DNA of 64,000 bases from a virus, in the IMG/VR virus record IMGVR_UViG_3300020183_000007, positions 32,001-96,000 of that record. One strand, given 5' to 3'. Both the position numbers and the translations under genes were made by a program. The notes below the pieces were generated by a model. The model saw only the letters and a program-made list of their open reading frames with translations, ran no database searches and was not told the origin of the DNA. Positions 1-27,014 of this stretch are shown in pieces; position 1 is the first letter of the stretch; every line of letters begins with the position of its first letter.

Positions 1-548
1 CTTGATCCACCGGATCCTCTATTATTTTCTAACGGATTTCTGCTTTCAGAGGAAGTAATCATTGTATTTCTTATAATTTGCAAAGAATTTTCAACAAAAG
101 TATTGCCAATATTTTTTCCGGCCATACTCTTAGATAGTATTTTATTCCATGCCGCAGCTCCGGTTAGAGTGGCATTATTAGAGCCAGTAGGATCCCCCTC
201 GGGGCCAACACTAAAATCTGTTGCTTCAGGGTTAGCTATTGTAATGGTCGCATTTTCGGGAGTGGTAGCGGATGCAGCTGCAGCTCCGCCAGTAATCAAA
301 CCATTTAAAGATGCAGATACACTTGCATTCATGGCTGCTATAGGATATTTTTTACTTCTATTTAAAACATCTCCAGCCATAACTCCAGTTACATCAAAAG
401 AACTTAATGTTCTTCCTGTGGCAGGAGGCGCTAAAGAAGCGCTAGTGTTTAAAACTGGTGATTTTCCACCGGGGTAAAAATCCCCATGTATAGTTTTAGC
501 AAAAGATGCGCTATCAGAAAGAGATTCATTATTAATATTAAATGACAC
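1..548 (-). CDS. Hypothetical virion/baseplate-region protein, partial (runs off the left edge)
   Basis: Not in the ORF track. Manual translation gives GTG at 548-546, with an AGGGAG SD overlapping the TAG of the 3718-aa gene. The frame reads VSFNINNESLSDSASFAKTIHGDFYPGGKSP... with no stop to position 1. Confidence 0.6.
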   Translation of the reverse strand, partial: MSFNINNESLSDSASFAKTIHGDFYPGGKSPVLNTSASLAPPATGRTLSSFDVTGVMAGDVLNRSKKYPIAAMNASVSASLNGLITGGAAAASATTPENATITIANPEATDFSVGPEGDPTGSNNATLTGAAAWNKILSKSMAGKNIGNTFVENSLQIIRNTMITSSESRNPLENNRGSGGS

Positions 549-558
549 AATAAACTCC

Positions 559-6500: not shown

Positions 6501-9500
6501 CTATAGCAAAATTTACTCCAGGTATTAGACCTACAGCTCCAGCCAATCCACCCATAAGTATATTTTTAGTTGCGTTTGCCCTACCCTCACTAGATACTAG
6601 TTGATTTCCGGCAGTCATTGTTGAAATTGCTGTTTTGGCTGACACGGACTCATTTTGAGCTTCTACTATAAGACGATTCCAAGATCTGTCTCCGGCTCTT
6701 TCCAAATACGCTTGTCCTTTTAGTTTTTTACTATCTTCCTCCACTAAAGACGAAGCTGTCAACCATCCATCATCTATGTCTCCACCAAGGAACTGAGCAA
6801 AGCCTGTTCCATTTCCTGGATAAATATTTCTTTTGAAAATTTCTAAATCAACCTCTGCACAGAAGTTAGACATTAACTGCCCCATGCTAGTCATTATTCT
6901 TCCATCTCCAAAGAATGTGCTAACAGGGTTTCTTGTAAAAACATTAGTTGCCAACTTGAATGATGCCGCATTGGCAGCTCCGCCAACATCTCCTTGACCA
7001 AGATTAGAATAAACGCTTGCTACAACATTTCTTATTCCATCAGCTCTTGCCCTCTCTGATTCGCTTAATGGTTCGTATAGTGTTGAGCCAAAATGTCTAA
7101 TACCAAATCTATTTTCAGAAAAGACTGTTCCATTTGTAGCTCTAGCAAAAGCTTCCCTAAATCTTGATGCGCCCATTGAAAGCAATCTAACCATTAGGTC
7201 TCTAGGTTCAGACAAATACATGCCAGTATCTACGCCACCATCTATTTTACCTGTGTCGCCTTTTTTATTTGTAGAGTTAACTATTGCACTAAGCTCAATT
7301 GCATCAGACTGTGCTGTTACTGTAACAATTTCACCTTGCTCCACATTTGTTATCACACCATTGAAAACTGTTTGCAAAGAGTTTGGATTAGCACCATATC
7401 CAACCCTAAGATGAACGCGAACTCCAGGCTTTAATCTAATATTATTAATATCTACAACATAATCATTTCTCATTCCTGAGACAATATTTTTAGCTATATT
7501 CAAAGTTCTATCCAAAATAGATTCAATACCTTGAGTAAAGTCTATTGGAGCATCATTTGGTTGGTTATCTCTAGAATTAAAAATTTCAGTAGAAGGACGT
7601 GTAGTCAATTTTGAATACATATTTGATACTCTAAATATTAAAGTATCACCCAAGAGATCCTCTGAGGAAACAACGGAAAAATCTACTATAGACTGCAACC
7701 CATAAAAGTTATCGAATAATTTAACACCAGCAAAAAAACCACCTTCGTCAATTAACCATAACATGTAGGTGGGAAATGCCCTGATCATTCTTCCAGATAT
7801 ATCTCTATACTGTACATCGTTCATCATCTTTTGAATATGGCTACCAAAGGATCCATCATAAGCTTTTTGATACTTATTTAATGACTGAACACCTTCTACG
7901 CCGGTAAGGGCATTTTTGCAACCTCTATCTGGCGTTTGTGTATCCTCAACCTGATTCTCTACTAGTCTCTTGTCTCCATGGTCATCTATCAAAACATTGG
8001 CTCCATCAACTGTTAAATAAAATCTTCCATTGTCTTTATTAATATAGCCAAAATGAGTCCCTAATGCTGATTGCATCATTGCCGGAATGTCTGATCCGGA
8101 TCCAGCTTCTTGCGGATTTGTTGCTGGAATCAAGTATATAACTTTATGAAAATCAACTTCATCTGGATTAAAGCTGACTTCTGTTTCAGTTGCTAAATGA
8201 GAATTTGTCAAAACCTGTTTGATTAAATTTAGCGTTTCTGCACTACTATAATTTACATTACCAACGGAATAACCGGCTCCAGAAATTTCTTCAAATACTG
8301 GATTATCTTCAGTTGATTGTGCAGAAATAAAAACATAATCGGTTAATAAGGCTTGCTTTTCTGAAGTTTGAAACTCAGAAGTTTCTGCTTGTACCACTTC
8401 TTGGAAAAGACTAATAAAGTTATGAACGCTTATGCCGCTACTGTTCACATAGTCTATGATTTCGTCAATTAATATTTTATTATTATTTGCTCTTAAAAGC
8501 TGCGGCAATGGCTCATTGGCAATATCCTTATAAGCGTATCTTCTAAGAAAATCTGTAATTCTATTTTTAACTTGATTTTTTCTTATTTCTATACCACGCG
8601 CATCTCCCAGCTTAGCCCAATTATCACTATAATCAAATTTAAAATCTTTTGTTATATCTGGTTGATAAGTAAAGTTATTAATGACATCTCTGTCAAACAT
8701 TTCAAAACTTCTAAAATAGAAGTCTGGATCCAAATTGCCAACTATTTCATTTTCTTTATCACGAACTTCCAGCGGCATATCGGGATATGCATTAAATGCT
8801 CCCCACAACTGCTTAATTCTTAAAAATGGATTTCTTTTTGACCCAAAGTGGTCAATAAAATCTTTTTGCTGCTTTGATGAAAGCTTTTCTCTTTTTTGCT
8901 GAAATATGTCAAAGTCAACAAAACTTAATTGAACATTGTAAACATGTGGATAATTTGGTATTGTATCGACTTTGAAGTTTAATGGAATAACATATTTGAT
9001 TCCACATAGTGCGCTAATAATATTTTTAATTCCAAGGAAACCAATAACTCCCGTAGAGTGTTCAAGCCTTGCTAATGAATTGATATGATCAAAAATTGCT
9101 CTAATTTTATAAAGCTCTCTTTCACCAAAAACAGTCATTGATATATTGACATATGAATCTTTTCCACCTATATACTGATATGTTGGTTCCTCCTGCATTT
9201 GCACTTGCAACTTCGAAAGGTTGTTTCCAAGACTTACGCTTACACCATTAACTATAGCTTTTTTAGGGTCTAAATCAACTCTGTTCATTGGGACTTCCCA
9301 TTCCTGGAAATGGTAATCTCCCTCCCTTAAACGCTTTGCCTCCATAAGATTTTGGATATAGCCATCAGAAAAAAAGCGATCATACAGTGATAATAAGAAT
9401 GCATCAGTTACTTGTTGACGAATTTTTTTTTCGTCAGGCACGGCTGTTTCGGTGCCTAAAACTTTTCTTTTTTCAATCTCTTCGACAATCAAAGTTTCAA

Positions 9501-11715
9501 TAATATTACCAGAAGAATAAACTGAATCCCAAATACTTTTTTTGATAAAGTTTAAACTAACACTATTATTTTTATTATTGAAAACTGGATCATTCAATAT
9601 ATATGATCCTTCTGTTGGATATAGGGTAAAGTAGTCTACATCAAATGGCATTTGGTCTGGAGTTAGGTAATTCAACAACCATTCTTTTTCTTGTGTCGTC
9701 AACTTTAATATGTTGCTTGATATAAATGACTGTACCTTGTATTTATAGATTCCAGCCCTGTAGTCACTTTGATTAATACCAGCAGTAATTATATCTACAG
9801 ATTGCCTAACAGCTGTCTTAATAGAAGGGGGGAATGTTGGCTCTAGAGAAAGAGACTTGATTTGATCTAAATCACGAATTGCTGGTGTATTTGGAGAAAT
9901 TTCAATTCCGAATTTTGCCAGCAAACCATTCCACAGTCCAAAACTTTGTTGATTAAGAATTTTTTCCTGCTCACTTCTGAAAGAAGAAGTATCAGGTAAG
10001 AACATTTTTGTTTGAGTTTCAGCTGGAGTATAAAAAGTTAAGTTACTACCGTCTCTCCACTGAGCAACTATATTGGTATATAAAACATCATTTTCATACG
10101 TGTTAAGCAGTTCTACTGTGTCATCCGTTAAAGAAGAATCTACTAGCGCAGATTCATCGATTAAAATAGGTCCATGTGGATTTTTCTGATATATATATGA
10201 GTCACTACGAATTATTCCAGTATTATCTTCTGTCTCTTGGACATTTTTATTATCGGACGTCTTTAGTAAGAAGGATTCGTTTGCGTATTTATGCATTGCA
10301 CCCGCTGCTTTACCCATGTACTGCCTGTATTTACCCCAATGAATTGCTTGATTAAAGTCTTTGAGCATTGGCAAAAATGGTTTGTGATTATAAGCGAGCA
10401 GCTCTAAATCAACCATTAAAGAAAATGGATAATTAGGAACTGTAGAAACAGACATAGAAGATAATGCCACAGCTGAAATTCCATGGACAGAATTTATATA
10501 ATCATTTTTTATTGGAAGTATTGGAGAGTATTTAAATGCTGCTACTAATCCACGCAAAGAAGAAAGAAACTTATCTATTTTTTCTTCCGAATCTCCAGTA
10601 TTCTTAAAATCTATTTTAAAATTTTCCTTAAGATCTATTGCCGAAGCATCGCTTATATGCATGCCCCATATTTCTTCATAGTTTGGAAAGAATAATCTTA
10701 AAGAGATTGAAGTTTCTTTATAGCCAGCATTATATTTGGGAGTATTTCTTTGTCTGATTGCTCCGCCAGTAAGTGATCCAGTTTTAAATGCAGAATTAAC
10801 CGTGATAGAAATAGGCGGTACATAAAAATTAGCTGCGCCTAAACGCAAATGAAAAATATCAGGTTTTTTGGGAGGTATATGAGCTCTATATGGAAAGTCT
10901 TCTATTGCCTTACGAATTCTTTCGGAAGTGTTACCTCCAATTCTAAAAGCCATAGTAAATATTGGCTCACCATTTGGAGCAAGACCAAAAGCTTTTTCCA
11001 ATTCATCAATAGCATCCTCTTCCCTATTGAGGGTATCCTCTTTTCCGCCACCCTTGCCTGCATTTGAGTAGTCGCCTGTTACAGCCAACGCATCAAAAAC
11101 AAACGTCATTAAACCCGGCAGGTAGTGATTTATAATAGAGAAAGATATAGGATCCGCTTGAAGATTGTAAACTACTTGGCTTAATAAAGTAAGCCATTCG
11201 GTATCAACCGCTGGATCTATGTGATAATCTAAAGACTTTTGTGTAATATACACATTTTGTAGTCTTTTCTTGCCCAATTCACTTATTTCATAGGCGAATG
11301 ATGCTAGATATAGTAGGCCGGTAGATTCTAGCCTTTTATACAAATTTACCAGAAGAGTATTGTCGTCAATGATTGAAGACAATGTGCCCCCAAGCGTAAA
11401 AACTCTAGTAGTAGCTTCTACCCTTTTCTGATAGTTATCTTTCGCTTCTTCCAGACCAGATGAATAATCTGCAAGGGTTGCATAATGATCTATATCAAGT
11501 ATGGGAAGAATTTCAGGCCTAGTTAAAGAAAAAAACCTTTCAAAAGCTTCTTCTGAGTTTTTGTACCGAGACTTAGGTAAATAATCATCGGTTAGATTAA
11601 GCGGACCAACCGTCATCATATTCACAAAAGCTTTTTGACTGTAATTATATGACAATGGGTCTGCGGAGTTTAAATTCTGTTCTTCTTGATTTTCCGATTG
11701 TTCGATATTAGACAT
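559..11715 (-). CDS. Giant multidomain baseplate hub protein (3718 aa) with tube-like N-terminal domains, hub, RlpA-like domain and C-terminal SNase nuclease
   Basis: Hub-like segments KPGVRVHLRVGYG...VFNGVITNVEQGEIVTVTAQSD (~7290-7430) and GELIIIGNADIRPHDLVYL..DVYERMYGIFEVEQIVHHF (~2270-2420) resemble gpD/gp27/VgrG hubs. SNase motifs are DGDTF, VRFDGIDSGE, NRILGTV and LNWELVTNNLATVY. Lies downstream of the tape-measure-like gene. Confidence 0.8.
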   Translation of the reverse strand: MSNIEQSENQEEQNLNSADPLSYNYSQKAFVNMMTVGPLNLTDDYLPKSRYKNSEEAFERFFSLTRPEILPILDIDHYATLADYSSGLEEAKDNYQKRVEATTRVFTLGGTLSSIIDDNTLLVNLYKRLESTGLLYLASFAYEISELGKKRLQNVYITQKSLDYHIDPAVDTEWLTLLSQVVYNLQADPISFSIINHYLPGLMTFVFDALAVTGDYSNAGKGGGKEDTLNREEDAIDELEKAFGLAPNGEPIFTMAFRIGGNTSERIRKAIEDFPYRAHIPPKKPDIFHLRLGAANFYVPPISITVNSAFKTGSLTGGAIRQRNTPKYNAGYKETSISLRLFFPNYEEIWGMHISDASAIDLKENFKIDFKNTGDSEEKIDKFLSSLRGLVAAFKYSPILPIKNDYINSVHGISAVALSSMSVSTVPNYPFSLMVDLELLAYNHKPFLPMLKDFNQAIHWGKYRQYMGKAAGAMHKYANESFLLKTSDNKNVQETEDNTGIIRSDSYIYQKNPHGPILIDESALVDSSLTDDTVELLNTYENDVLYTNIVAQWRDGSNLTFYTPAETQTKMFLPDTSSFRSEQEKILNQQSFGLWNGLLAKFGIEISPNTPAIRDLDQIKSLSLEPTFPPSIKTAVRQSVDIITAGINQSDYRAGIYKYKVQSFISSNILKLTTQEKEWLLNYLTPDQMPFDVDYFTLYPTEGSYILNDPVFNNKNNSVSLNFIKKSIWDSVYSSGNIIETLIVEEIEKRKVLGTETAVPDEKKIRQQVTDAFLLSLYDRFFSDGYIQNLMEAKRLREGDYHFQEWEVPMNRVDLDPKKAIVNGVSVSLGNNLSKLQVQMQEEPTYQYIGGKDSYVNISMTVFGERELYKIRAIFDHINSLARLEHSTGVIGFLGIKNIISALCGIKYVIPLNFKVDTIPNYPHVYNVQLSFVDFDIFQQKREKLSSKQQKDFIDHFGSKRNPFLRIKQLWGAFNAYPDMPLEVRDKENEIVGNLDPDFYFRSFEMFDRDVINNFTYQPDITKDFKFDYSDNWAKLGDARGIEIRKNQVKNRITDFLRRYAYKDIANEPLPQLLRANNNKILIDEIIDYVNSSGISVHNFISLFQEVVQAETSEFQTSEKQALLTDYVFISAQSTEDNPVFEEISGAGYSVGNVNYSSAETLNLIKQVLTNSHLATETEVSFNPDEVDFHKVIYLIPATNPQEAGSGSDIPAMMQSALGTHFGYINKDNGRFYLTVDGANVLIDDHGDKRLVENQVEDTQTPDRGCKNALTGVEGVQSLNKYQKAYDGSFGSHIQKMMNDVQYRDISGRMIRAFPTYMLWLIDEGGFFAGVKLFDNFYGLQSIVDFSVVSSEDLLGDTLIFRVSNMYSKLTTRPSTEIFNSRDNQPNDAPIDFTQGIESILDRTLNIAKNIVSGMRNDYVVDINNIRLKPGVRVHLRVGYGANPNSLQTVFNGVITNVEQGEIVTVTAQSDAIELSAIVNSTNKKGDTGKIDGGVDTGMYLSEPRDLMVRLLSMGASRFREAFARATNGTVFSENRFGIRHFGSTLYEPLSESERARADGIRNVVASVYSNLGQGDVGGAANAASFKLATNVFTRNPVSTFFGDGRIMTSMGQLMSNFCAEVDLEIFKRNIYPGNGTGFAQFLGGDIDDGWLTASSLVEEDSKKLKGQAYLERAGDRSWNRLIVEAQNESVSAKTAISTMTAGNQLVSSEGRANATKNILMGGLAGAVGLIPGVNFAIGSGIAGGGLFGILRGRGGTNLFRTMGIISPNDDDDLPGFDEVSFRAQTYMRTVWDLFQVCARLLPNYIVAIRPFEDRSTIFYGKPHWLYTSGVVPVTTGFPSTQRGSELELPGYPKYRSADEDIQNIMSNINRSSNTLADYEAFKRSNELSDTMASLASDQVNSQGIYKPTAFLKEKLINFNSPLASSFSETQDDGTKVVVAKLPTVVGLTRVGFHLPVGDPTTTIAPMTKAHAQLDNLPPRFRYPFYTINETIILDSTSYSIRDGGVFQNAASHFKDIGKSGRKFLDNEGEVPMDAEEFQGFVNEAMAEDRRSFGGATFMANMFTLLQYESKFILNNELTLVPSSGILELDRPLGFSTFIDNIIDVDGLSFIGGANTKYVRMPLPSVLANRLSISVDPAAITQYSVSSSEAKRNADDYSFEYEISNQISYEEWGSPGDLPASQQTAAEAEQFYIAMKWPYNPGFSSTQAPSGFNNITVYDETLEKFKEKYGFTDLYGTAEDYKKRKVLVYSPRTNRAVVCAPAYFLWGDDDDTAAAVVSPDAAWYLGNFISKNLSFKLTANSEESDILNQLPSWINTMASAAGAVGSAAGTALGYALNVSQYISAPIYIGNRITDRLNVSIFGNEDELNYENESGLSINPQPVECMFAFVPDDVPVGVISSAAAPIKRFLERGARSPDDSMILGFGNYTMTEDGQLSELTARRTTSQDLINELQGGAGSRFKVYDEDMVDPPNIFSEWIPINAEISSSRFDFGGNALAVPDGRDKPFIGYFNALLDATNFNSSAESGGLGSSEDSDLVGNEQLSRSYLYDVLDEELSTTGDVKTSKGRAAFLSVYDPLDSVSVEARSYYDENFDPNVSVIAGNGRNLNQANDIWDQFRFGYHTYDSVKAIFARIYGMDPDSTDAFPEEFARILGSSNENSFSNFEDSNIPIAGLSNTENTAVDELAILLGADYFNIPNNPQMGGQGVPSTNATQRRNAVEFIRKNYIDLIAAEKESDTGIIQFFNATIADALNGIKENFFESGVTNSILEYALENKKNPEEAIALSEKIKTPKQLFLLMVGIFRQNLWSTAYGRAWLVLKPNRKRGIITSGGGGSEGQWSFKPVDKIFEAFINPYGEYAKDKNKFLKLLVSTKSEGTGSSTFISGISESVGNFYDRNIGPIMSAIGDGLSGLLGMFKLAMMQMGYAITEVGNFSRQAHILNKVLNDSIYYSLGREGSLLRAVDNPFTREYGEPVVEVRQSFQRLHYLSSFSHIISNQIQENLNGVSTVVTAVSDGKYPITVALDKGAPAERQTEKTVETGLYYDNFVGSGFLGVLHPLMHPLETVRGIAKNIQGTPDELSARRIALAHLRESIKDIYGGELIIIGNADIRPHDLVYLSDVYERMYGIFEVEQIVHHFTPEMGYITSITPNALVTVNDPARWFLSSWINSWFTVQNLRNDTRFYMDNIMASNSGINLGGMVSVDALSDALSPQMIGGLQYTHGSTALIKDIMANQTATTLPQKAEAVIKQYGSSASRSVFQGMTTALTGGVGIAAAAAGAGATGVAGFAMGLSVPIVGQLAWKGWKWIRDNVLDQHGCYVQYLSKNGQPMDAGLSYNQGMVVGRHHSKVLLPGLLGARTKVRTPEGNIFIRSDDLLKSLGWQERQTTDLIRYIDYENALVHARVLQLSGLGPDKTNLQPSLFSVIAKVIKFKDGDTFDVQDVISGAKFTVRFDGIDSGEINTFTVTSNDGDLGVSYSNDSTPSTKMTAINTPGGKAKIFVQSKLENRLVVLRIRINNAASSSVISESDFEAGAEQNTVANYTKDVTESNRILGTVWYYQPESIVQAAKDFVEKCFIDNQIGAGAEQKIKQLFFNSIYQDSPLFVKKDSILNALSALGLVYTSPLSITLDTNTKYGLSNSETIKLYNDLVQYKVLESTYNKTREWPTIFWDEYYENGHPVTLNWELVTNNLATVYTKQLQIEGNSVISAEESAIMPARVGQ

Positions 11716-12180: not shown

Positions 12181-15100
12181 TTAAAATGAGCTAGCGAGCT
12201 GCTGATATGGATCAGACGTCACACTTGGGATCCTATTATACATAGTACTGTTAATCGGTCCATTAGTAAGTCCAGAAGCTGCTTGTTGAAATCTTTCAAC
12301 ATCCTGCCTAGAACCATATAAGGAAACCTTGTAACTCATTCCAGAAGCAGATGCCTGTCCACCAATTTGGGGAACAGAAACATTAGAAGTTGGATATCCC
12401 TGCTCATAAGCTGATCCACCAGGAAGAAGCGGAGGACCCGCAGCGTCTTCTGTTGTTTTATCTTTTTTATTTTGATATAAAAAGCTTCCCGCTATCAATA
12501 GTCCTGCTGCGATGGCAGTTTTTTGAACAGATGGCTTAGAAAACTGCTCTGTTAAATAATCCATATCTAAACGTTTAAATTTAGATGGATTTACATTGGA
12601 TGGAGATTGATCTTCAAGATCTCTCAAAACATTACCAACTATACCCTTTGGTTTATCTTTGCGTCCGACGACTTTATCTGCAGATATTTGACCATTCAAA
12701 AAATCGTCTATTGCGGGATCCAAAATGTCTCTTTCATATAGAGCCCTAGATCTTATGGCATTAGATATGGTTTTTATAGTTTCATCTGTAGTATCTTCCA
12801 CACCTTTTCCTACAGCTTGACTTAATTGTTGCATGTCGATACCTAAATCTGCAAACATTCCAGAAACATCGCCATATTGAGAAAGGTCTAAAGCCCTTTG
12901 TTTGGTGTTGCCTTCAATAATATCCGTAAGCAGTAACTCCCTCGTGGATGATGTGGCGCTAAAGAAATTGTCAACAATATTTTTGACTTGTAAATTTGAA
13001 GTTGCCTTTGTGTAGGCTGCTTTATTCCTTTTCGCCATGTTAAGTCTGGCAAAAAGATTAGCAAATTCTTCATTTGAATCCTCGGTAAGATCAGTTAACT
13101 GCTCAAAAACATATGAGCTCATTCCACGATCTGAAGCTTCTAATTGAAGTGCATTTAATAAATTAAATCCAGTTAAAGGTCTTTGTGATCTAACTTCATC
13201 AATTCCTCTTAATAAATTGTCTCCTAATTCAGTTTTTAATATTTCAGCTCTTAATCGAGCCTGTTCAAAGCCCATAGATAGCTCTTGCCTTCTGGCAGCA
13301 TCGATAAACTGTCCATCCTCTATGCCTTCTCTAAATAATTTTTGTGCGTCTCTATAAGCTGCATTGGCTTCCATAAGTTCGTCAAAAATATTCTGATTTG
13401 CATCTAAAATAGCTTTTGCAGATAATTGTGCTTCAGTAGCGTTTTTGCCCATGCCAGCAGTAAGCGTATCTCTTAGTTCTTTCATATTATCGCCAAATCT
13501 TTTTCTCGCTGCGTTGAAACTATCTTGAGCTTGCTGAGCAATTTCAATTGTTTTAGAAAGATTACCTCTACCAATAACTCCTATATCTGTTAGGGCCGTT
13601 ATTATTTTAGCTTTAGAAGGGGCATCTCCGCCTTCAAACAGATTCTTTAATTTACTAAGATCTTCATCAGTTTGTATTCCTTCAGCAATCCTAGCCTCAG
13701 CGCCCTTTATATAACTCTCAGCAAAAGCTGTAAGGTCATCTTTGTTTAACTTTCCAAAATCAATGAGAGCCTTGTCGAGAACAAACTGTTGCCCCCCTCT
13801 ATGTTGTAGATATCCGAACATTTCCCCATATTGACTCACAGCTTCTGCGCCGCTTGTTTCTAGATCAAAATTATTTCCATACATTCTTCTAAAAATATCC
13901 ATGCCATATCTAGTATCTGCTGCTGCTTCTGCCTCCATTTTTAATTTCAGTCTTCCAGAAGTAAATGTTTGGGTCATGTCTACTGCGGTTTCCGATGATG
14001 GAAAACCTACCAATAGCCCTTTCCCATTGTCATATCGCCTAAGTGCATCGTTAATTGCTTGATCAGATCCAAAAGCTTTTTCAAATTGAGCCAAACCATC
14101 TGCAATTACCGTAGCTCTGTTAACATGCTTACCAAGATTGTTAGCGTTTTCCGTAGATGCTTTTTCCATGCTTTCAAGATAGAATTTATTAAATGCAATA
14201 GCTTTTTTATTTTTATCTAATTGAAAACTATCTAAAGTTTCACGAAAAGCTTTTGAAGCTTTCTTTATATCTGCCTGTGCCTGTTCTAATGCCGCCAGCT
14301 GCACTGGATCATCGTAAACAGAACCAGGTATAAACTGACCGGAATATGCCGGACCTTTTAATGCTTGTATCTGATCTCTGATAGCACCTAGTTGCGTTTT
14401 TTGCTGATCTGTCATAAGATGCTCATACATCCGATAAATATCATCTTCAAGATTCATTTCCATAACTTCAGTCTTTAACTTTTGAAAGCCAAGGGAAGTT
14501 AAGCCCGGATCAACGCCAGCAAAATCAACTAATCTAGATCCTGCAAAAAAATCAACTGTACTAGCACCCTGCTTTAGGACGCCTAGTGATTCGAAATATG
14601 CTCTATCAAAAGTTCTTGCTTTTCCACCATACAATCTATCTCTAACATCTATAATTGTTTCCTCAAGTTCATCTAATAATGCAGACTGATCAATTCGTGT
14701 CATTTCTTCTGATGTGAATTTTCCAGATAAATTTTGCTGTAAAATATTTAATCTGTCTAAGGTTGGAGAACTACCAGAACCTGCCAATTTTTCTTTTTCA
14801 TCTAAAATCATTTGATCTAAAGTTTTCATAAAATCTGCGTTATGACCAAATAATTCTTGATAACTTTCTATATCATTAAAGCGAACAAACCCAATCATTT
14901 CGCCTGCACCCGTGGGCTGACGAGCCATGGCCATAGCCAAACGTCTTTTGCCATTAGACATGTAGGTTCCCAAAACTGGTAGCCCTTTGTCGTCAAGGTC
15001 GAATCCACCAAGAGCATGGTGGAACCTAATAACATCCCTTTCGCTCATTAATAAGTTGTGATTAGAAAATCTTACACGAGTTGTACTGAGACTGAATCCT

Positions 15101-17256
15101 TCATCCATCATTATATTTTGATCAGTCATATCCAAGAACATTCTGCCACTTGATATACCAATCTGGGTAGATTCTGCGTTCAAAGCAAATCTATACACAT
15201 CGGGCATTACTGGTAGTGGTATTCCCTTTTTAATCTTAAAAAATTCTTTTTGAGCAAAATCTATAATTCTATTCATAGCCCTGGGATGCTGATCTAGCGG
15301 AATGCCACTTCTATGGATTTCAAGTATCTCTTGCGCCATATTCCTATTCATTAGTTGAGAAAATTGCTGAGTGTCTAATATATCTTCAGATTGGAAATTT
15401 GCAGCGCTTAATAGGGATTGATAAAATTTTCCATTCTCATCAATCCTATTTGCTTTTAACATCTCGTTAAATTCTTTTTGTAAAGCAAGAGAATACTCTC
15501 TACCCAATTGTTGCGATTGTGGCGAACCAAATACTGCTGCATGAAACGCATCAAGCATAGGATCGGCATAGACTGCACCTTTAGACTCTCCGGTACCAGA
15601 AATGTTTAGAATGTCTGTTAAACCAGATATTCTAGTTTCTCTTTTCGTTGTTGCCTTTGGTGCAATAATAGAATATTTTGTATATCTTCCAGTAAACTCA
15701 ACACTCATTGCTGCGCCTTTTAGAGAGAATATTCTAGCGGGGCGCGCTTGATCTCCCGCATCAAAGACAACATTTCCACGAACAGTTATTTGAGACAAGC
15801 CCTTAGATTTATCTAATTGGCTCGAGGATCTCTGAATTTCTCTTTTTTTCAAAAGAATATCTTGTTTTTCTAATCTACTAGTAGCCTGTGCATACTGTTT
15901 ATCTAATTCATCTATCTCAGATTGATACCCTTTTCGAATAGCTTTAGTATAGGAATCATTTATCAACATAGAACCATCTGACCCCTTTTCCATCTCATCA
16001 AGTAAAACGTCAATAATGTTAAACTTTTTATCTATTTCACTTAAAGCCTTTTCATCGCCAGCTGCACCTTTTTCTAACCTATCTTTCAATAAACCAAGCT
16101 TACTTTTCAAAACATCTGTACCATATTTGCCAACAGTAATATCTACATCTCCACTGTCTATAGCGTCTTGCATAGCTATCTTTAGATAATTGCCAATATC
16201 AGAATATACTTCAGTTTTTATTGGCCCTGGCCCAGTCTGTCCACGAATTACCTCATCTAAAATTATTTTATAAAAATCCTTAGATCTATCTTGACCCCCA
16301 ATCATCCAAGAATCTCTTATTCTTTGCGCTGCGTCTGCGGCTTTTTCTGCATTGTTCATTCCTGAAACATTTTTCAATGTATCAATATCTAGAGCTAACC
16401 CCAGTGCCTCAAAAACTGGATCAGTGTTAAGAATTGAATCAGCGAATGATAACCCAGGCTTACCAACTTCATCCAATATTGATTCTAGAGCACCACCAGA
16501 AACAGAAACCTCTCTTGGAGACAAAACGCCACGCAATCTTTTATCCAACTTTTGAATTAAAGAAGCTACTTTTTTATTTCCCGACCTCAAAGCGTCCTCT
16601 AAAACATCTGGATCTATAGCAGATACATTTGCTGCCTGCATCACTTCCAATGTTTGATCTAAACCTAGAACTTGTTTTTTGCCAGCAATTGTCGCAACCA
16701 AGTTCAAAGCAATTCCGCCATCATCCGTAGGTAAGAGTAAACCATAGCCTTTTTGCTTCTGTGCATCAAAAAAGGCTTTTAGCGCTTCAGTGCCCTGCTG
16801 AGTATCTAGTCCACCTTTATGAATAGCGATATTCATCTCTAAAGCTTCTATACCAAAAAGATTTTGCTGTATGGCGACTTTTTCCATATCCCTTAAAACC
16901 TGACCATATCCCCTATATACAACGGGGACATCATCTTTTGATAATCTGTAAACTTCAGTAATATGCAGCGAAGAAAAATATTCTATAGCGTCGTTAACAG
17001 AGTTAAATACTTTCCTGCCTTCATCTGGATCAAAATAAGATGACCTATATTTTAAAATGTTATCTGCTGGATCGACAAACGGTTCTATTAACCTTTTTTG
17101 GCCAGTAGGTATTTTTCCTATTATTCTTCTAGCTGCTCTAACTTGTTTCTCTGGAGATAAAGGAGACAAGTACGCAGACAAATAGTCGCTAAAGGATTCA
17201 TACTCAGGAATCTCTTGTCTTCGTTTTTCTAGAAAACTAGCTATTTTCCCCAACAT
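12181..17256 (-). CDS. Large virion-module protein (1691 aa), putative divergent single-subunit two-barrel RNA polymerase
   Basis: The ORF itself is unambiguous. Motifs in order: S426-D-G-S-M-L-I, SQITVRG, SLK513G, IIAPKATTK538, VMPDVYRFAL, G750GFDLDD, R779QPT, N806ADF. These resemble the two double-psi barrels of YonO/RdRP/beta-beta' polymerases. There is no canonical DxDGD. Confidence 0.55.
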   Translation of the reverse strand: MLGKIASFLEKRRQEIPEYESFSDYLSAYLSPLSPEKQVRAARRIIGKIPTGQKRLIEPFVDPADNILKYRSSYFDPDEGRKVFNSVNDAIEYFSSLHITEVYRLSKDDVPVVYRGYGQVLRDMEKVAIQQNLFGIEALEMNIAIHKGGLDTQQGTEALKAFFDAQKQKGYGLLLPTDDGGIALNLVATIAGKKQVLGLDQTLEVMQAANVSAIDPDVLEDALRSGNKKVASLIQKLDKRLRGVLSPREVSVSGGALESILDEVGKPGLSFADSILNTDPVFEALGLALDIDTLKNVSGMNNAEKAADAAQRIRDSWMIGGQDRSKDFYKIILDEVIRGQTGPGPIKTEVYSDIGNYLKIAMQDAIDSGDVDITVGKYGTDVLKSKLGLLKDRLEKGAAGDEKALSEIDKKFNIIDVLLDEMEKGSDGSMLINDSYTKAIRKGYQSEIDELDKQYAQATSRLEKQDILLKKREIQRSSSQLDKSKGLSQITVRGNVVFDAGDQARPARIFSLKGAAMSVEFTGRYTKYSIIAPKATTKRETRISGLTDILNISGTGESKGAVYADPMLDAFHAAVFGSPQSQQLGREYSLALQKEFNEMLKANRIDENGKFYQSLLSAANFQSEDILDTQQFSQLMNRNMAQEILEIHRSGIPLDQHPRAMNRIIDFAQKEFFKIKKGIPLPVMPDVYRFALNAESTQIGISSGRMFLDMTDQNIMMDEGFSLSTTRVRFSNHNLLMSERDVIRFHHALGGFDLDDKGLPVLGTYMSNGKRRLAMAMARQPTGAGEMIGFVRFNDIESYQELFGHNADFMKTLDQMILDEKEKLAGSGSSPTLDRLNILQQNLSGKFTSEEMTRIDQSALLDELEETIIDVRDRLYGGKARTFDRAYFESLGVLKQGASTVDFFAGSRLVDFAGVDPGLTSLGFQKLKTEVMEMNLEDDIYRMYEHLMTDQQKTQLGAIRDQIQALKGPAYSGQFIPGSVYDDPVQLAALEQAQADIKKASKAFRETLDSFQLDKNKKAIAFNKFYLESMEKASTENANNLGKHVNRATVIADGLAQFEKAFGSDQAINDALRRYDNGKGLLVGFPSSETAVDMTQTFTSGRLKLKMEAEAAADTRYGMDIFRRMYGNNFDLETSGAEAVSQYGEMFGYLQHRGGQQFVLDKALIDFGKLNKDDLTAFAESYIKGAEARIAEGIQTDEDLSKLKNLFEGGDAPSKAKIITALTDIGVIGRGNLSKTIEIAQQAQDSFNAARKRFGDNMKELRDTLTAGMGKNATEAQLSAKAILDANQNIFDELMEANAAYRDAQKLFREGIEDGQFIDAARRQELSMGFEQARLRAEILKTELGDNLLRGIDEVRSQRPLTGFNLLNALQLEASDRGMSSYVFEQLTDLTEDSNEEFANLFARLNMAKRNKAAYTKATSNLQVKNIVDNFFSATSSTRELLLTDIIEGNTKQRALDLSQYGDVSGMFADLGIDMQQLSQAVGKGVEDTTDETIKTISNAIRSRALYERDILDPAIDDFLNGQISADKVVGRKDKPKGIVGNVLRDLEDQSPSNVNPSKFKRLDMDYLTEQFSKPSVQKTAIAAGLLIAGSFLYQNKKDKTTEDAAGPPLLPGGSAYEQGYPTSNVSVPQIGGQASASGMSYKVSLYGSRQDVERFQQAASGLTNGPINSTMYNRIPSVTSDPYQQLASSF

Positions 17257-17258
17257 TT

Positions 17259-20200
17259 TTATCTAACCCCTGCACTTATGTCAATTTGTTGACCACCAAA
17301 TGGATTCATTACCGGAGTAACAGAACCGCTAACTCCCATGCCATTCATTAAAGAGCGCAACCTATATGACACATCAGCATTGGAGTTCGAAGAGTAGTCA
17401 AACCGAGGATAACTCGGATTAGCCAAATTAGCTTCTCTTATTTGTTGAGGATAGTAACCCATTTGAGACATTTCAAGACCCATGTGCTGACCTATTTTAA
17501 TCTTAACAGAGTCCATATTTGTATTGGGATGCCAGCCCTCCCACCCCTCACCGGGAAGTTCGTGTCTACTAAAATAATCTGTTAACTCTGGACGCTTCTC
17601 AACAGGCATCCCCCATGCTGCTTCGTATATTCTTCTTTCTAATCTTCCAGCTGTAGAAAGTATCCTTTCCCTATCTTCTTCTGGAGCATTAATCATTGCC
17701 TTAAAATGCTCTCTCTTCCTTTTTGGAATCGCTAAAGATAAAGATTCTACATCACTTCCATATTTACCTGTACCAATAGCTTCTATTGGTGCTCCATACA
17801 TTGTTCTTTTTGCTGCTGATCTAAACTGAAAAGCTGCTGCTGCGTCTCCGGAAGATTCTGCCATGTTAGCTAACCTTGTATTTTTTACATAACTTAGAAT
17901 ATCAGCATACTCTTCAAGGGCTAATTCCTTTTTTCTTTCTATTGGTATAAATCTATCTCCAGTTATTGCCTCTTGAAGATTTGCCCCAGTAGAAGCTACT
18001 AAACCAGTCGCGGCACCTAGGCCAGACATGACTAATTTTCCAGGCTGCGTTCTACCTGCAAAGAGTCCGAAAGCAGCTAAGCTTGCAGAAGCAGCTAATG
18101 GATTTCTATCTGCAGCTTTGTTAAGCATTGGTTCTATAAAGCTTTCAAATGGCCTTTGCCATTCGGGGAATGTAGCCCCATAAACATTATTTCTTTCCCA
18201 ATCTTCTACTGCTGTCTGTTTATTAATAAATTTTCTATTGATAAAAGTATCTCTGTGAGCAATGTATTCTGCAGCTCTGGATAGATTGTGGACTAATGGA
18301 TTAGTTCCAGCTTCTTGAGCGGTTTTGCCCACATGACTGTATTCAGAAAAGCTTTCCTTCTGCTGTATAGATGCCACTCTCTCTCTAATGCTGTCTGCTT
18401 GCAGTCTTTCTGATGGATCATCTAAATAGCTGTTAATTTTTTTATCTAAATATCTATACTGCTTAGAATATGGAGCGACATCACCAAGTATTTTAAACTG
18501 ATCCAATAAACCATATCTTCCAGTTTCGTCTGAATGTAACTGGTTTAATCTTTCATAAGCGACTCCGGGTAAACGCAATTCGCCTTCTTGAACTTTTGTA
18601 AAAGGATCTCCCCTAGTAAAATCTAAATAATATTCTGGTCCTGGCAAAAATGGATACTGTTTGCCCATGGTGTTTTGTATTGGATTAAGGTAATCCACAC
18701 CAGTTCTTTCTTTTGGTATAAATCTTCTAGTTATTTCGGAAAATTCTATCGAACCAAAATTTCTTCCACCCAACATTGGAACGTCGCCAAGTCCACCAAG
18801 ATTATAATCCCAGAACTGCCTACTCATACCGTATGCTTTAGAGGCAGACTGTAGAACAGCTCTTTGTGGTTCAAAGTCTCCTTGACCATATCCAAAAGAT
18901 TCTCTGAATGTTGCGCTAGCAAAACCATAGATACCTAAGGCCTCTTGGGTTCTGTACCCAAATTCTTGAAGCTGCACCTGTGGATCGCTAACTGAAATTG
19001 GCGAACCTGCACCAACAATTCTTGGCGGCATCATCCCAGGAGTTTTTGGTGGACCATATGCCATCTGAGTATACTGATTATTTATTTGACCTATATTTTG
19101 CATAGTCGAATATTTAGCAGTATTTAAAGCTCCTGCCCTGCCTGCCAACTGAGCATTTATTGATGCCTGCATTCCTGGTCCGGGCCCACCAGAAGAAACA
19201 CCCATTGACATCATAGGCATTCCCCCCTGCGCTGATCCGCCAATAAAAGCTTGACCAGATTGCTGCTGCGCAGCTTGCCCTGGCAGCATTGGCATGGCTG
19301 CTTGCTGCAAATAAGCGCTTGCATCATATGCTCCAGACTGCCCTGCTGGAGCATAGTTTGATAAGGCTTGGGAAACTTCTTGTTCGTGCATTTTTACTTG
19401 AGGCTTTAATACTCTACCCAAAGTGGCATTTAGAGCAGGAGTTAGCGGACCAAAAGGACCAGAAAAATACTCTCCACTCACAGGATAAGGTCTGTCCTCA
19501 TAATGTTTTCTTTCAAAACGATATGGATCCAATGGACGCAGTGGAGATACATCTGTATAAAATAACGCTCTTTCAATAGGTGAACCATACGTGTCAGAAG
19601 TAAACATCGACCCTGTTTCAATCTTACGATAAATGCTAGGCCTATAATACATTATCTTTCCGCCCATAAAAGGCGTATTACCTAATGGCCAAAAACGACC
19701 TTGTCTTATGGGTACTTCGCCCTCAAAAAGCTGTTCTCTTTTTTCTTCATAGCTCATTCCGCCAGGCATAATTCCCGCACCTAATGCATGAACTTCGCCT
19801 ACAGCTTTTGCGGCAGCGCCAACAAAGAATGGAGAATAAACCCTTTCTCCTCTTGCATCTTTTTCGTTTACCATTCCACCAATTGTTCTATCAGCAGTCA
19901 TAAACGCTAATCCACCGGCATATAGTGGTAATACTCTTTTGCCTATCATACCTCGCGCAAAAAGATCCAATGGAGAGCCATACTGATTTACGTCTAGTTG
20001 CAAACCAACTGTGCCAAAATATTTATTTAATCTTTCCACACCATGAGAAACTGCGGCAGAGAGATTAGAATAATTTTCCGGACTACTATAAGTATTTATC
20101 CCTGCAACACTCTTTAATGCGCCTACAGGATTTCTAGAAAATACGCTACCAAAAGTAGGAACCAATAAAACGTCTGCTCCAGGCCCAGTAGCAGAACCCA

Positions 20201-23200
20201 GTGGGTCTGTAGCTAAATGAGATATCTTAAACGATGCGGTGCTTAGTGAGGGATATAATAATTTTTTAGCTAAACCCAGCTTACCTATTTCTCCAACTCT
20301 TTCAATTGAACCTGTTGCAAATGGCTGAATTAGTTCAGGGGCAGCTTCTAATGATTCTATTGTATTTGCAAGTGCTCTTCTTTGAACCTGAATTTCTTTT
20401 AGAAAGGATCTGTTAGCTCTTACTGAGTTTAGATTGGTTAGAGCTCCAAATGCTGCGGCTTGTGCTTCGGCCAATTCGCCAGCTGGCATTTCTTTAGCCA
20501 TCTGTGCTAAAGCTTGGTTTATTTTAATAAAATTTTGACCAAATGTTTGACTCGTACTATTTGCAATTAATTCATTTCTTTGAATTAAAAACTTAAATAA
20601 TTCGTTTGTTAACTCATCTTCTCTTGTAATAATTGTTGGGCTAACCGAACGAATTTGTGAACCAGATAAAAGATCTGATTCTTCTAATACTTTCCTAATT
20701 CTAGATTCACTTTGGTACAACGTTGCGGGATCAATGCCCTGTCTTCTTAAAACATTTGCATCTCTTTCGATATTTCTAAGTAAGACATTAGCGAAGTCTA
20801 TTTTGTCTTGCACATTCTGAAGATCAGTTATTCTCCTACCATTAAATGTAGCTAAGGCCGGATCTGCTACTTCAATTTTTTGCATTGCACGTCGAGAAAA
20901 ACCGGCTTTAAATGTTCTTCTTCTAAAACCTTCAAAAGCTTCTAGCAAAGCTTTTTCTGAAACCATTTCTTGACCAGTTTCGGCATTGATTACATTTACC
21001 TTTTGAACATTGCCATCTACATCTTTAATGATGTTCCTTCTTAAGGTGCCGGCTTTTGTGATGATATCTTTTCCGGCTATTACTTCTGCAAAAAATCTAG
21101 GATTTTCTGGATCGATATTTCTTCTAGAAAATCTAGACATGAAACCAAATATTGAGTTTGGCTGGTCATAGTTTATATCAAAAGCTTGTCTAAATCTCAA
21201 TTCTTTTTCTGGCGTTACACCAAATCTAGATAGAGCAGAAAAGAATTTACTTCTAAATGTATTTTCCTGATAGTTTAAAGAGTTAAGTGACTCAGCATCT
21301 CTTTCGGCAGCAGCGTTTCTGGCTGCACGAGTTAAAAGCTGCGAACTGTTTTTCTTTAAAGGTCTAAAAGTTCCATCTAATGTTCTAGAAGTGTATTGTT
21401 GAGCCATGACGTTGTAATTAAACGCCATAACATTGCCTTTGGTTTTTCCACCACTAAAAAATAAATAGAAGTCAGCAGATTTATCTGCTTCCTGCAAAAA
21501 CGGCTGAGAAATTTTACCTTGGATAAATTGGAATGGTGCTCGTCCAGACATTTCATTAAACGACTGCTTAGCGGCTAAATCTGCTGGATTAAAACCAAGA
21601 ACTGGTATTCTTAAATCATTAGCTAAAAAGTTTCCAACATTTCTTACAGACTGTTTTATTCCAGAAACATCTAAAATATTACCTGTTTTAGTGATAAAGA
21701 TATCAGGAAGAACAGAAACACTCGAAGCTGTTTTTGTTGGATCAGCCCTAACCATACTGGATGATAATTGATTAATAAAACTTTGAGTTTCCTCATCTAG
21801 ATTTGCGAACACTCCACGTTGAGTTGCCTCGTCAACAGTTATTTGCCTTAAACCTAAAAGATTAAAACCGCTAGCAAAAACACCAGAGCTTATTTGCTTT
21901 TCTCTAACAAGAAAACTTCTTAGCTGACCAAGGTTTTTTACATCAAGACCAACCTTACCTAAAGACTCCCCTAACTCACCCCTAGTTAAGTCTGTGCCAT
22001 CAGCTGATTTTAGTTTCATTCCTAATCTTTGAGCAGATCTTTTAATTAGAAAATCTTTTTGTGCGTAAGATAAGTTATCCAAATCAAGAAAATCTTCAAA
22101 ATCTGCTTTCTTAGTTTTTAAAACTTTTCCAGCTACCTTAAACATTCCTTGTTCCTGGAATGCCTTATACCCCTTTGTGGCTTTAGCTTTTATGGCGGCC
22201 TGAAACTCTGCTCCTGCGAAGAGTCTGTTTGCATCAATGATTGATTGCTGTAGAACATCAGAATTGCCAACTTTTTGAACAAATTCATCTGCTCTATTTT
22301 TTGATAAAGTTCCTTTAAATCTATTTATTATTTCGTCAAATGGCTCATCGCCATCAAGGAGTATTTTAGTTTCGCCTATAGTTATTCTTCTTGATGGCTC
22401 CATAGCGGTTTTATTGATATCTATATCGTCAATAAACTTTGCTATAGTTTTTGCAAAATCATCTCTATCTGACGTTGCAGTTTTTTCCATCAAAGATCTA
22501 TATAAGACCTTCTTATACTCGGTTTGCTCTATTCCCTTATAGAACTCTGACGAATAAAAACTCTCAGAACCCATTGGTCCACCAAATGTTCTAGCCATTT
22601 TGCTAGCCATAGTGGCCATTCTATTGGAAGAGTTAGCTTGAAGATTTTCTATAATTCCTTTTAGCTGCCTTCTGTAGGCGTCAGGATTTGCAGCGCCATA
22701 TTTTTGAACAGCAGCATCAAAGTCAATGGCTCTAGTTACGACATCGTAACCTTGACCTACTTTACGGAATTGATTTATACCCTGTCTAACGGCACTGCCA
22801 ACGCCTCTAAGTCCAGGAAATAAATCTATATATCCAGAATTTCCATTAACGTCATTACCAAATGCGTATTGGGTCGCTACATTTCTTGCCCTTTTAAGCT
22901 TAGACCCCTTGGAATCTTCATAGATTTGCTTTGCTCTAAGATTTCTTGTTCTTGAAAGAATCGTATTAATATCAACTCTTTGTTGATTATATTCTGTAGT
23001 AGCAGCTTTTATCGCTCCACTGGTTTGAGCAGAAACTTTTATAGCTTTTTGAGTTATATTTGCTAAATCATGACCAACTTCAGACATAATATCTGCCAAA
23101 TTAACAAACATTCTTGAAGAAGTTGTTTTCAGATCTGTCGTGCCAGTCGACCTTGCCAAGTCTGACATTGAATATCTAAAATTAGACAGTGAAGATCTAG

Positions 23201-27004: not shown

Positions 27005-27014
27005 TAAAATCTCC

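What the first reader, a model, noticed from the sequence alone, without database searches (positions are those of the whole stretch)
14821..15012. Non-canonical catalytic loop: DLDD lies before RQPT, and a degenerate NADF lies after it
Seen: GGFDLDDKG (aa 750-758) precedes RQPT (779), and HNADFMKT begins 27 residues after that Arg. Knowledge: in beta' the order is RxP then NADFDGD about 33 residues later, and RdRPs have GxDLDGD. Inference gives two alternatives. (a) The barrel is rearranged and DLDD is an Asp triad missing the Gly, which would be a new active-site architecture. (b) NADFMKT is a decayed catalytic loop and the protein is an inactive polymerase reused structurally. I also considered a match of GFDLDD to the beta GYNFED motif, but a beta-type barrel already appears upstream.
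Basis: partly seen in the sequence, partly recalled or inferred. Interest (0 to 1): 0.72.

Follow-up and report, generated by a model that had tools for sequence, protein, structure and literature searches.

The report
Rewired RNA-polymerase-like core in phage tail protein
A 1691-residue protein encoded among the tail genes of an uncultured ~180-kb phage most likely contains a very divergent copy of the catalytic core of cellular-type RNA polymerases. Its metal-binding loop is one residue shorter than the textbook one and lies before, not after, its partner Arg-x-Pro motif; the phage also carries a second, compact gene with the same arrangement.

Summary
GGFDLDDKG (aa 750-758), RQPT (779-782) and HNADFMKT (805-812) lie where stated, in the minus-strand gene 12181-17256.

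- **DxDD:** it is kept in every homologue that covers the site, about 145 cluster representatives down to ~20% identity.
- **R779, P781 and E786:** these are also fixed.
- **NADF:** it is not conserved (only F809 is), so the "decayed NADFDGD, inactive enzyme" reading fails.

RQP sits at the end of a β-hairpin that returns to the Asp loop. Controls (phi14:2 gp66, 0305phi8-36 orf99) have RxP 39-44 residues upstream instead.

An 860-aa paralogue elsewhere in the genome has the same DxDD-(~23)-RSP layout. It co-occurs with the tail gene on 9 of 11 contigs of at least 160 kb.

Best reading: a tail-delivered virion RNA polymerase plus a non-virion paralogue, with a rewired catalytic barrel. Activity, packaging and the exact strand order are untested. 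This scan has already noted the same family in at least 7 other genomes.

The parts
12181..17256 (-). Whole gene, 1691 aa (P0001): tail-module protein with a polymerase-like core
   Evidence: ORF list and translation. 139 cluster representatives from the exhaustive search, most of them 1550-1750 aa. No Pfam, PHROGs or PDB sequence hit.
15958..15987 (-). KGSDGSMLIN (aa 424-433). Invariant D427-G428 is the candidate fourth acidic residue, equivalent to QDE-1 D709 and Rpb2 D837.
   Evidence: Invariant in A1 and A2. The VIA range of the large model, 1..831 against QDE-1 698..1182, places it near D709. The equivalence is inferred.
15532..15819 (-). First barrel-like region (aa 480-575), carrying Q489, T491, R493, K513, K538, S553-G554 and D565
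   Evidence: K513 is invariant in 40 diverse sequences; R493 and K538 are kept in at least 90%. Beta strands are predicted here. The core model range 1..285/297 against QDE-1 725..1019/1022 puts R493 near QDE-1 R738.
14872..15240 (-). Second, catalytic barrel-like region (aa 673-795), carrying P685, R689, E695, R729, H733, the DLDD loop, the hairpin, RQPT, E786 and D795
   Evidence: DSSP of both models: strands, then helix 739-748, a loop, and strands 757-767, 770-780 and 787-790. Conservation.
14989..15000 (-). D753-L-D755-D756: the proposed metal-binding triad (DxDD)
   Evidence: DxDD is present in all 146 of the 151 sequences held for this family that cover the site. It lies between a helix and a strand, as NADFDGD does in beta'. 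In the QDE-1 alignment it lies 8 residues before the end of the range, exactly as D1011 does.
14914..14988 (-). Beta-hairpin aa 757-781 (K757...R779-Q-P781). The return strand ends in RQP beside the Asp loop.
   Evidence: DSSP shows strands 757-767 and 770-780 with a two-residue turn. R779 and P781 are invariant. That R779 lies next to K757 and D756 in space is inferred from the hairpin register.
14911..14922 (-). RQPT (aa 779-782): the same letters as Rpb1 NRQPSLH and beta' NRAPTLH, but downstream of the triad
   Evidence: The canonical upstream position was confirmed in phi14:2 gp66, 0305phi8-36 orf99 and in the literature (PMC2919709). The Rpb1 and beta' motif strings are from my own knowledge.
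14830..14841 (-). NADF (aa 806-809): a chance look-alike inside a helix, not a catalytic loop
   Evidence: N, A and D are not conserved; only F809 is. DSSP places it in helix 796-804/807 onward.
12184..12525 (-). C-terminal module (aa 1578-1691): a short hydrophobic segment AIAAGLLIAGSFLY, then GPPLLPGGSAYE...ASSF. Together with the DLDD block it is the best conserved part of the protein.
   Evidence: Conservation profile and invariant columns. In IMG/VR loci L057, L058 and L065 it is still 49-50% identical where the rest of the protein is undetectable. Its role as a tail anchor or membrane segment is inferred.
17259..23954 (-). Upstream 2231-aa ORF in the tape-measure position
   Evidence: It follows the sheath gene (27769-29031), tube-like ORFs and two small ORFs. 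The order ~2200 aa, ~1560-1790 aa, ~140 aa, ~3700 aa recurs in loci whose central protein is only 23-25% identical. It has no family hit, so its tape-measure identity rests on position alone.
559..11715 (-). Downstream 3718-aa giant ORF, baseplate or hub-like, preceded by the 148-aa ORF at 11724-12170
   Evidence: It matches phrog_20474 (named endolysin) at 8e-121 and phrog_8809. The synteny is conserved.

Best explanation
P0001 is a highly divergent single-chain two-barrel polymerase, of the fold class of cellular RNA polymerases, QDE-1/RDR and YonO. Its gene lies between the tape-measure-position gene and the baseplate giant, so the protein is probably carried in or at the tail and enters the cell with the DNA to start phage transcription. 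This would resemble P23-45 gp96 and crAss gp66. The catalytic metal site is the invariant loop G-G-F-D753-L-D755-D756-K. It sits between a helix and a strand of the second barrel, where DxDGD sits in known enzymes, but it is one residue shorter. The universal Arg-x-Pro element is missing from its usual place 33-45 residues upstream. Instead an invariant R779-Q-P781-T ends the return strand of a beta-hairpin that starts right after the Asp loop, so the Arg is brought back next to the triad. Either the beta3-RxP-beta4 segment of the barrel has moved behind beta6, or a new hairpin has taken over its role. D427, R493, K513 and K538 supply the acidic and basic residues that the first barrel contributes in known enzymes. 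NADF is a chance match. An 860-aa paralogue in the replication and early part of the genome has the same DxDD-then-RSP layout and is the likely non-virion polymerase. Shown here: the motif positions, their conservation, the predicted secondary structure, the fold matches, the paralogue and its co-occurrence. Inferred: the residue equivalences, the strand order, catalysis and virion delivery.
For: Conservation:
- DxDD, R779, P781 and E786 are fixed across 146 sequences down to ~20% identity.

Fold:
- The models are good: pLDDT 79.1 with pTM 0.75, and pLDDT 85.6 with pTM 0.80.
- In one search the QDE-1 range ends 8 residues after D756 and 8 residues after D1011.

Paralogue:
- P0152 has GGMDEDD...RSPNGYGE with the same 27-residue spacing.
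- All 120 listed homologues keep it.
- The pattern occurs twice in the six-frame genome against none in 200 shuffles.
- 21 of its 30 nearest ESM-Atlas clusters carry Pfam RdRP, at score 0.95.
- Both genes occur on 9 of 11 IMG/VR contigs of at least 160 kb.

Context:
- The window holds sheath, portal and terminase genes, and the tail-module synteny is conserved.
- A tape-measure-fused virion RNAP is a published precedent (PMC10770324).
Against: - No sequence method links the family to any known polymerase. This covers Pfam, PHROGs and PDB profile searches and hhalign against gp66 and orf99.
- Even the two DxDD families align only at P = 0.14.
- The letter of two defining motifs is not met: the loop is DxDD rather than DxDxD, and there is no upstream RxP.
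- No coordinates were available, so metal geometry, strand order and the R779-to-Asp distance are unverified.
- There are no virion proteomics, no activity data and no cultured relative carrying the gene.
Confidence: 0.6

Rival explanations
1. The fold is derived from a two-barrel polymerase, but the tail-module protein no longer polymerises RNA. It would serve as a structural or ejection component of the tail lumen or baseplate, and the fixed acidic and basic residues would be kept for metal-dependent folding, DNA-end binding or another phosphoryl-transfer reaction. Real transcription would be done by the compact 860-aa paralogue or by the host.
For: The tail protein evolves much faster than the compact paralogue on the same contigs, for example 26% against 64% identity on IMGVR_UViG_3300027733_000030. 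Its best conserved part, together with the DLDD block, is the non-catalytic C-terminal module. Its position directly after the tape-measure-position gene is typical of tail-lumen proteins (established knowledge of Mu-like and P2-like tail modules).
Against: The whole proposed active-site set (D427, K513, D753, D755, D756, R779, P781, E786) is invariant in 40 sequences at ~23% mean column identity, and R493 and K538 are kept in at least 90%. Inactive derivatives usually lose such residues. P23-45 gp96 shows that a tail-borne polymerase can be active (PMC10770324).
Confidence: 0.2
2. It is not a two-barrel polymerase at all. The AlphaFold model or the weak matches would be misleading, and GGFDLDDK...RQP would be the active site of an unrelated Mg-dependent enzyme or a binding site in a new fold.
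Against: Four independent structures of two different RdRP lineages are the only long matches, in both models and in both an unbiased and a Foldseek-seeded search. The alignment ends place DLDD on DxDGD. The kinds of invariant residue match the universal set of eight. The paralogue's nearest language-model neighbours carry Pfam RdRP.
Confidence: 0.15
3. One reading: HNADFMKT is the decayed remnant of NADFDGD, and the protein is an inactive polymerase.
For: Only the four-letter resemblance NADF, and its position 27 residues after an RxP, which roughly matches the beta' spacing.
Against: N806, A807 and D808 are not conserved even among close homologues: the consensus is HNKxF, and distant members have DxF or other letters. 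The segment is predicted to be helical. No homologue has DxDGD at this site.
Confidence: 0.02

Closest known systems
Eukaryotic RNAi polymerases QDE-1 (PDB 2J7N, 7Y7P, 7Y7T) and RDR2 (7EU1, 7W82, 7W84); Pfam RdRP PF05183
   Different: There is no Pfam PF05183 hit. The triad is DxDD rather than DxDGD. RxP lies 26 residues after the first Asp, whereas in QDE-1 R962 lies 45 residues before D1007. The protein has a ~420-aa N-terminal and a ~800-aa C-terminal extension, is encoded by a phage in a tail module, and is presumably DNA-dependent.
YonO-like phage polymerases (SPbeta YonO; Bacillus phage 0305phi8-36 orf99)
   Same: They are phage single-chain two-barrel enzymes. By terminase similarity the 0305phi8-36 group is among the nearest cultured relatives of this phage (28.7% identity to 0305phi8-36 itself, up to 33.6% in the group). 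orf99 carries FRSP and GGADTDGDK, close in letters to the compact paralogue's TRSP and GGMDEDD.
   Different: orf99 has the canonical order, with R557-S-P 44 residues before D601-T-D-G-D, and it hits PF05183 at 1.1e-20. Neither DxDD family shows a significant hhalign match to it. No homologue of either DxDD family was found in 0305phi8-36.
Thermus phage P23-45 gp96 (tape-measure-fused virion RNAP) with gp64 (non-virion RNAP), Chaban et al. 2024, PMC10770324
   Same: The biological layout is the same. A two-barrel polymerase is tied to the tape-measure region of the tail, and a compact paralogue is encoded elsewhere in the genome. In both phages the two appear to derive from a duplication within the phage lineage (here).
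   Different: Here the polymerase is a separate gene next to the tape-measure-position ORF, not fused to it. This phage has a contractile tail. The P23-45 enzymes have DxDxD. No sequence match to any PDB chain was found, and these structures did not appear among the listed fold matches.
crAss-like phage virion RNAP (phi14:2 gp66, PDB 6VR4)
   Same: It is a large virion-packaged single-chain two-barrel enzyme encoded among giant structural genes. Its loop GSDFDIDK ends in Lys, as GGFDLDDK does.
   Different: gp66 has the canonical order R1322-I-P ... D1361-F-D-I-D and a five-residue triad. There is no profile similarity. The phage lineage is different (podovirus-like Crassvirales).

Membership tests
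Two-barrel (double-psi beta-barrel) RNA polymerase superfamily | Two double-psi beta-barrels in one catalytic core, with overall fold similarity to known members | tested here: inconclusive
Two-barrel (double-psi beta-barrel) RNA polymerase superfamily | D-x-D-x-D metal-binding triad in the catalytic barrel | tested here: not met
   The loop is D-x-D-D in all 146 tail-family sequences that cover the site and in all 120 compact paralogues. No DxDxD occurs at or near the site. It has three Asp in the right structural place but is one residue shorter.
Two-barrel (double-psi beta-barrel) RNA polymerase superfamily | Invariant R-x-P 33-45 residues upstream of the triad | tested here: not met
   There is no conserved RxP upstream; that region (aa ~700-725) is variable and has indels. 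An invariant R779-x-P781 lies 26 residues downstream. Controls have the canonical order (PMC2919709).
Two-barrel (double-psi beta-barrel) RNA polymerase superfamily | A fourth invariant Asp and two invariant basic residues from the first barrel | tested here: met
   D427 and K513 are invariant; R493 and K538 are kept in at least 90% of 40 diverse sequences. Their equivalence to QDE-1 D709, R738 and K743 rests only on alignment ranges and is inferred.
Two-barrel (double-psi beta-barrel) RNA polymerase superfamily | Template-dependent RNA synthesis | not testable with these tools
   This needs purified protein and a primer-extension assay.
Pfam RdRP (PF05183), including YonO-like proteins | A score above the family's gathering threshold | tested here: not met
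   hmmscan found no hit at E up to 1 for P0001 or P0152, and the search of the own genome found none. The positive control, 0305phi8-36 orf99, scores 69.1 bits. A weaker lead is that 21 of the 30 nearest ESM-Atlas clusters of P0152 carry PF05183.
P23-45 gp96-type tape-measure-fused virion RNAP | Polymerase domain fused to the tape measure protein | tested here: not met
   It is a separate ORF, 12181-17256, directly downstream of the 2231-aa ORF at 17259-23954.
Virion-packaged phage RNA polymerases (functional class) | Presence in the virion and transcription of early genes | not testable with these tools
   Only gene position supports this: the gene lies in the tail module, with synteny conserved in loci whose central protein is 23-25% identical.

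The most novel reading that the evidence does not exclude
Within the catalytic double-psi barrel the beta3-RxP-beta4 segment has been transposed to follow beta6, and the Asp triad has been shortened from DxDxD to DxDD. This rewired site is active and has been kept in two paralogous polymerases, one tail-delivered and one non-virion, of a widespread lineage of ~170-210-kb uncultured phages. It would be the first natural example of the universal two-barrel active site built with a different chain order.
Probability: 0.4. Interest if true: 0.85.

Novelty: new variant of a known kind. Interest (0 to 1): 0.7.

Why it matters
The DxDxD loop and the upstream RxP are among the eight residues reported as invariant in every two-barrel polymerase, from bacteria to RNAi enzymes (PMC2919709).

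- **Active-site evolution:** a large natural family that keeps the residues but changes both their spacing and their order would show how much the most conserved active site in transcription can be rewired. It would also give a natural test case for how the third Asp and the ribose-contacting Arg are positioned.
- **Phage biology:** this would be a third independent case of a phage delivering its own cellular-type RNA polymerase, after crAss-like phages and P23-45. Here it is in contractile-tailed ~200-kb phages that are common in metagenomes. It also suggests that motif searches for DxDxD miss such enzymes.

Tried and rejected
- **Sequence families and solved structures:** Pfam, PHROGs and PDB sequence searches of P0001 and its neighbours gave nothing useful. 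Pfam on all 16 members of A1 gave only noise. A PDB profile search with A3 found only designed helical repeats.
- **Cultured phages:** tblastn of P0001 and P0152 against 50,697 phage records gave no match. Profile searches of Moorella phage MTATph1, 0305phi8-36 and KLEB27-3 with A1 and A4 gave none.
- **Foldseek against the PDB:** neither model gave a hit at E up to 0.001. P23-45 gp96/gp64, phi14:2 gp66 and the beta/beta' barrels did not appear among the listed VIA rows. That is no evidence either way.
- **Atlas:** the fold library was unavailable. The feature search on P0001 aa 420-900 gave no usable hit.
- **hhalign:** the family against phi14:2 gp66 and against 0305phi8-36 orf99 showed nothing. 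The tail family against the compact family aligns in chain order over 249 columns with all motifs matched, but at P = 0.14, so the paralogy rests on the motif pattern and spacing, not on the profile score.
- **Fused forms:** a search for proteins over 2960 aa, such as tape-measure fusions, found none. The tool itself calls this weak evidence.
- **Other polymerase families in the own genome:** Rpb1_2, Rpb2_6 and RdRP gave none. The search for T7-like RNA_pol also gave none, but its controls failed, so it is uninformative.
- **Repeat region at 93-109 kb:** tRNA and Rfam scans found nothing.
- **Double-psi barrel strand neighbours:** I looked for a published description of which strands are adjacent, to settle the permutation question. 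The paper read did not give it.
Full report
**Observation**

The finding lies in a 1691-codon minus-strand gene, window 12181-17256. One search confirms every coordinate:
- GGFDLDDKG is aa 750-758.
- RQPT is aa 779-782.
- HNADFMKT is aa 805-812, with N806 lying 27 residues after R779.

**Context**

The window belongs to a 179.6-kb IMG/VR virus record judged 85% complete. It carries a tail sheath, a portal and a large terminase. By terminase similarity the nearest cultured phages are Moorella phage MTATph1 and the Bacillus phage 0305phi8-36 group, at only 29-38% identity.

The gene sits in a run of giant minus-strand ORFs: 2231 aa in the tape-measure position, then 1691 aa, 148 aa and 3718 aa. 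The same run (~2200, ~1560-1790, ~140 and ~3700 aa) recurs around homologues that are only 23-25% identical.

**Conservation**

A word-indexed search gave 16 homologues. An exhaustive HMMER search with aa 520-1000 gave 139 cluster representatives, most of them 1550-1750 aa long.
- In the 16-sequence alignment L749-GGFDLDDK-757, R779, P781, E786, D795 and F803 are invariant.
- In 40 diverse sequences at 23% mean column identity the invariant set in the core is D427, G428, K513, L749, D753, D755, D756, R779, P781 and E786. R493, K538, D565, R689 and K757 are kept in at least 90%.
- An HMM alignment of all fetched sequences shows D-x-D-D in every one that covers the site. R-x-P follows, mostly 26-27 residues after the first Asp.
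- NADF is not conserved. The consensus is HNKxF, distant members have quite different letters, and only F809 persists.

This disposes of the "decayed NADFDGD" reading.

**Fold**

Two AlphaFold models were built from 40-sequence alignments:
- aa 420-1250: pLDDT 79.1, pTM 0.75.
- aa 480-880: pLDDT 85.6, pTM 0.80.

Both give the same local picture. Helix 739-748 is followed by the loop GGFDLDD, then by a long hairpin of strands 757-767 and 770-780. The return strand of the hairpin ends in R779-Q-P781. After that come strand 787-790 and a helix that contains the NADF letters.

|---|---|---|---|---|---|---|
| All 48,161 representatives | large | QDE-1 | 7.8 | 5.0 | 387 | 47 |
| All 48,161 representatives | core | QDE-1 | 5.6 | 4.9 | 225 | 64 |
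| Foldseek candidates | large, core | AtRDR2 | 7.8, 6.8 | 4.2, 4.4 | 351, 209 | 51, 75 |
| Foldseek candidates | large, core | QDE-1 | 7.7, 5.6 | 5.6, 5.6 | 392, 215-218 | 51, 75 |
| Foldseek candidates | large, core | maize RDR2 | 6.0, 5.3 | 4.2, 4.0 | 361, 208 | 51, 75 |

**Comparison with the defining residues**

[quoted passage not shown] The family studied here has one of each kind among its invariant positions. It departs in two ways: the triad is DxDD, and RxP follows the triad instead of preceding it.

- phi14:2 gp66 has R1322-I-P, then D1361-F-D-I-D.
- 0305phi8-36 orf99, a bona fide PF05183 member, has F-R557-S-P, then GGA-D601-T-D-G-D-K.

The letters around R779, a hydrophobic strand followed by R-Q-P-T, are those of Rpb1 NRQPSLH and beta' NRAPTLH (my own knowledge of those motifs). 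Because R779 ends the return strand of a hairpin whose outgoing strand begins at K757, it must lie next to the Asp loop. This follows from the hairpin register.

Two readings fit:
- The beta3-RxP-beta4 segment has moved behind beta6. This is feasible if beta3 and beta6 are antiparallel neighbours, which I recall from memory but could not confirm.
- The barrel keeps its usual order and a new hairpin supplies the Arg.

The region where a canonical RxP would be expected (aa ~700-725) is variable and full of indels.

**A second gene with the same layout**

A six-frame scan of the whole record for D.DD followed by R.P found one further convincing site. It lies in an 860-aa plus-strand ORF at genome 117,958-120,540, outside the window (P0152, locus L009).

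The ORF carries, in order:
- LLDGGFVIS
- FNAR...LLKGN
- VKKE
- HGGMDEDD
- ATRSPNGYGE

The Arg lies 27 residues after the first Asp, the same spacing as in the tail protein.

Evidence on this family:
- At least 210 homologues were found. All 120 listed keep GG[HM]DxDD...RSPNGxGE.
- The pattern GG.D.DD(15-45)R.P.G..E occurs twice in the six-frame translation, against zero in 200 residue shuffles.
- hhalign aligns the two families in chain order over 249 columns with all motifs matched, but only at P = 0.14. The paralogy therefore rests on the motif set and spacing.
- The language-model neighbours of P0152 in the ESM Atlas are dominated by viral clusters carrying Pfam RdRP: 21 of 30, at score 0.95. 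The tool treats this as a lead, not a proof.
- In IMG/VR, 9 of the 11 contigs of at least 160 kb that carry the tail gene also carry the compact gene.
- The compact gene is much better conserved than the tail gene, 49-64% against 24-26% identity on shared contigs.
- Three significant BFVD matches of the core model are uncharacterised phage proteins of 851-1141 aa. Their lengths suggest compact-family members, but I could not verify this.

**Mechanism proposed**

By analogy with P23-45 (PMC10770324), the tail-module protein would be carried in the tail and enter with the DNA to transcribe the first genes. The compact paralogue would be made afterwards. No canonical RNAP subunit family or RdRP hit exists in the record. 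Nothing here shows packaging or activity.

**Novelty**

I found no paper in the held library that describes DxDD in a double-psi-barrel polymerase. No Pfam, PHROGs or named protein covers either family.

The same scan has already flagged this family in at least seven other genomes, and follow-up agents reached similar readings. Those are AI notes, not independent evidence. One of them (e1-5705035) gave me the lead to look for a compact copy, which I then verified here.

I class this as a new variant of a known kind: a two-barrel polymerase with a rewired catalytic barrel, in a virion plus non-virion pair.

**Verdict**

- Interpretation (a) is partly supported and (b) is rejected.
- Confidence that this is a two-barrel polymerase core using DxDD is about 0.6.
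- Confidence that the chain order of the barrel is truly changed is about 0.4.

Noticed in passing
L009 (G000:C1:117958-120540, + strand; outside the window): An 860-aa compact paralogue (P0152) with LLDGGFVIS, FNAR..LLKGN, GGMDEDD and RSPNGYGE. It has the same DxDD-then-RxP order and spacing as the tail protein. Its family has at least 210 members, and it co-occurs with the tail gene on 9 of 11 large IMG/VR contigs.
   Followed up: yes
L008:1241-1631 (G000:C1:121740-122130), plus one unit at G000:C1:125564-125600: A tandem array of about ten 37-bp units, each GAATGAATCA-N9-ATTAGTAACA-N8, lying between plus-strand genes just downstream of the compact polymerase gene. It looks like an iteron array and may be a replication origin.
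   Followed up: no
window 63974 (G000:C1:95974) and nine more copies up to G000:C1:106831 (L007): Ten same-orientation copies of RATGGYCTATCCTCAAARARAAA..TCCCC, most of them followed by a GC-rich hairpin-like CCCCGAGGA...CCCCGGGG, in the gaps between small genes next to the structural block. No tRNA or Rfam hit was found. They are candidate phage-specific promoters or terminators that a phage polymerase might read.
   Followed up: partly
window 12184-12525 (aa 1578-1691 of P0001); L057, L058, L065: The C-terminal module (a hydrophobic segment followed by GPPLLPGGSAYE...ASSF) is, together with the DLDD block, the best conserved part of the protein. It stays 49-50% identical in loci where the rest is no longer detectable by tblastn. 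It may anchor the protein in the tail or act in the membrane.
   Followed up: partly
window 559-11715 (-): The 3718-aa ORF matches phrog_20474 (named endolysin) at 8e-121 in five stretches, and also phrog_8809. It appears to be a giant baseplate or hub fusion protein carrying wall-degrading domains.
   Followed up: no
window 27078-27740, 26207-27049, 25193-26194 (-): Three consecutive ORFs just downstream of the sheath gene all match phrog_9206, which is labelled 'major head protein'. Their position suggests that they are paralogous tail-tube-like proteins and that the PHROG label is misleading.
   Followed up: no
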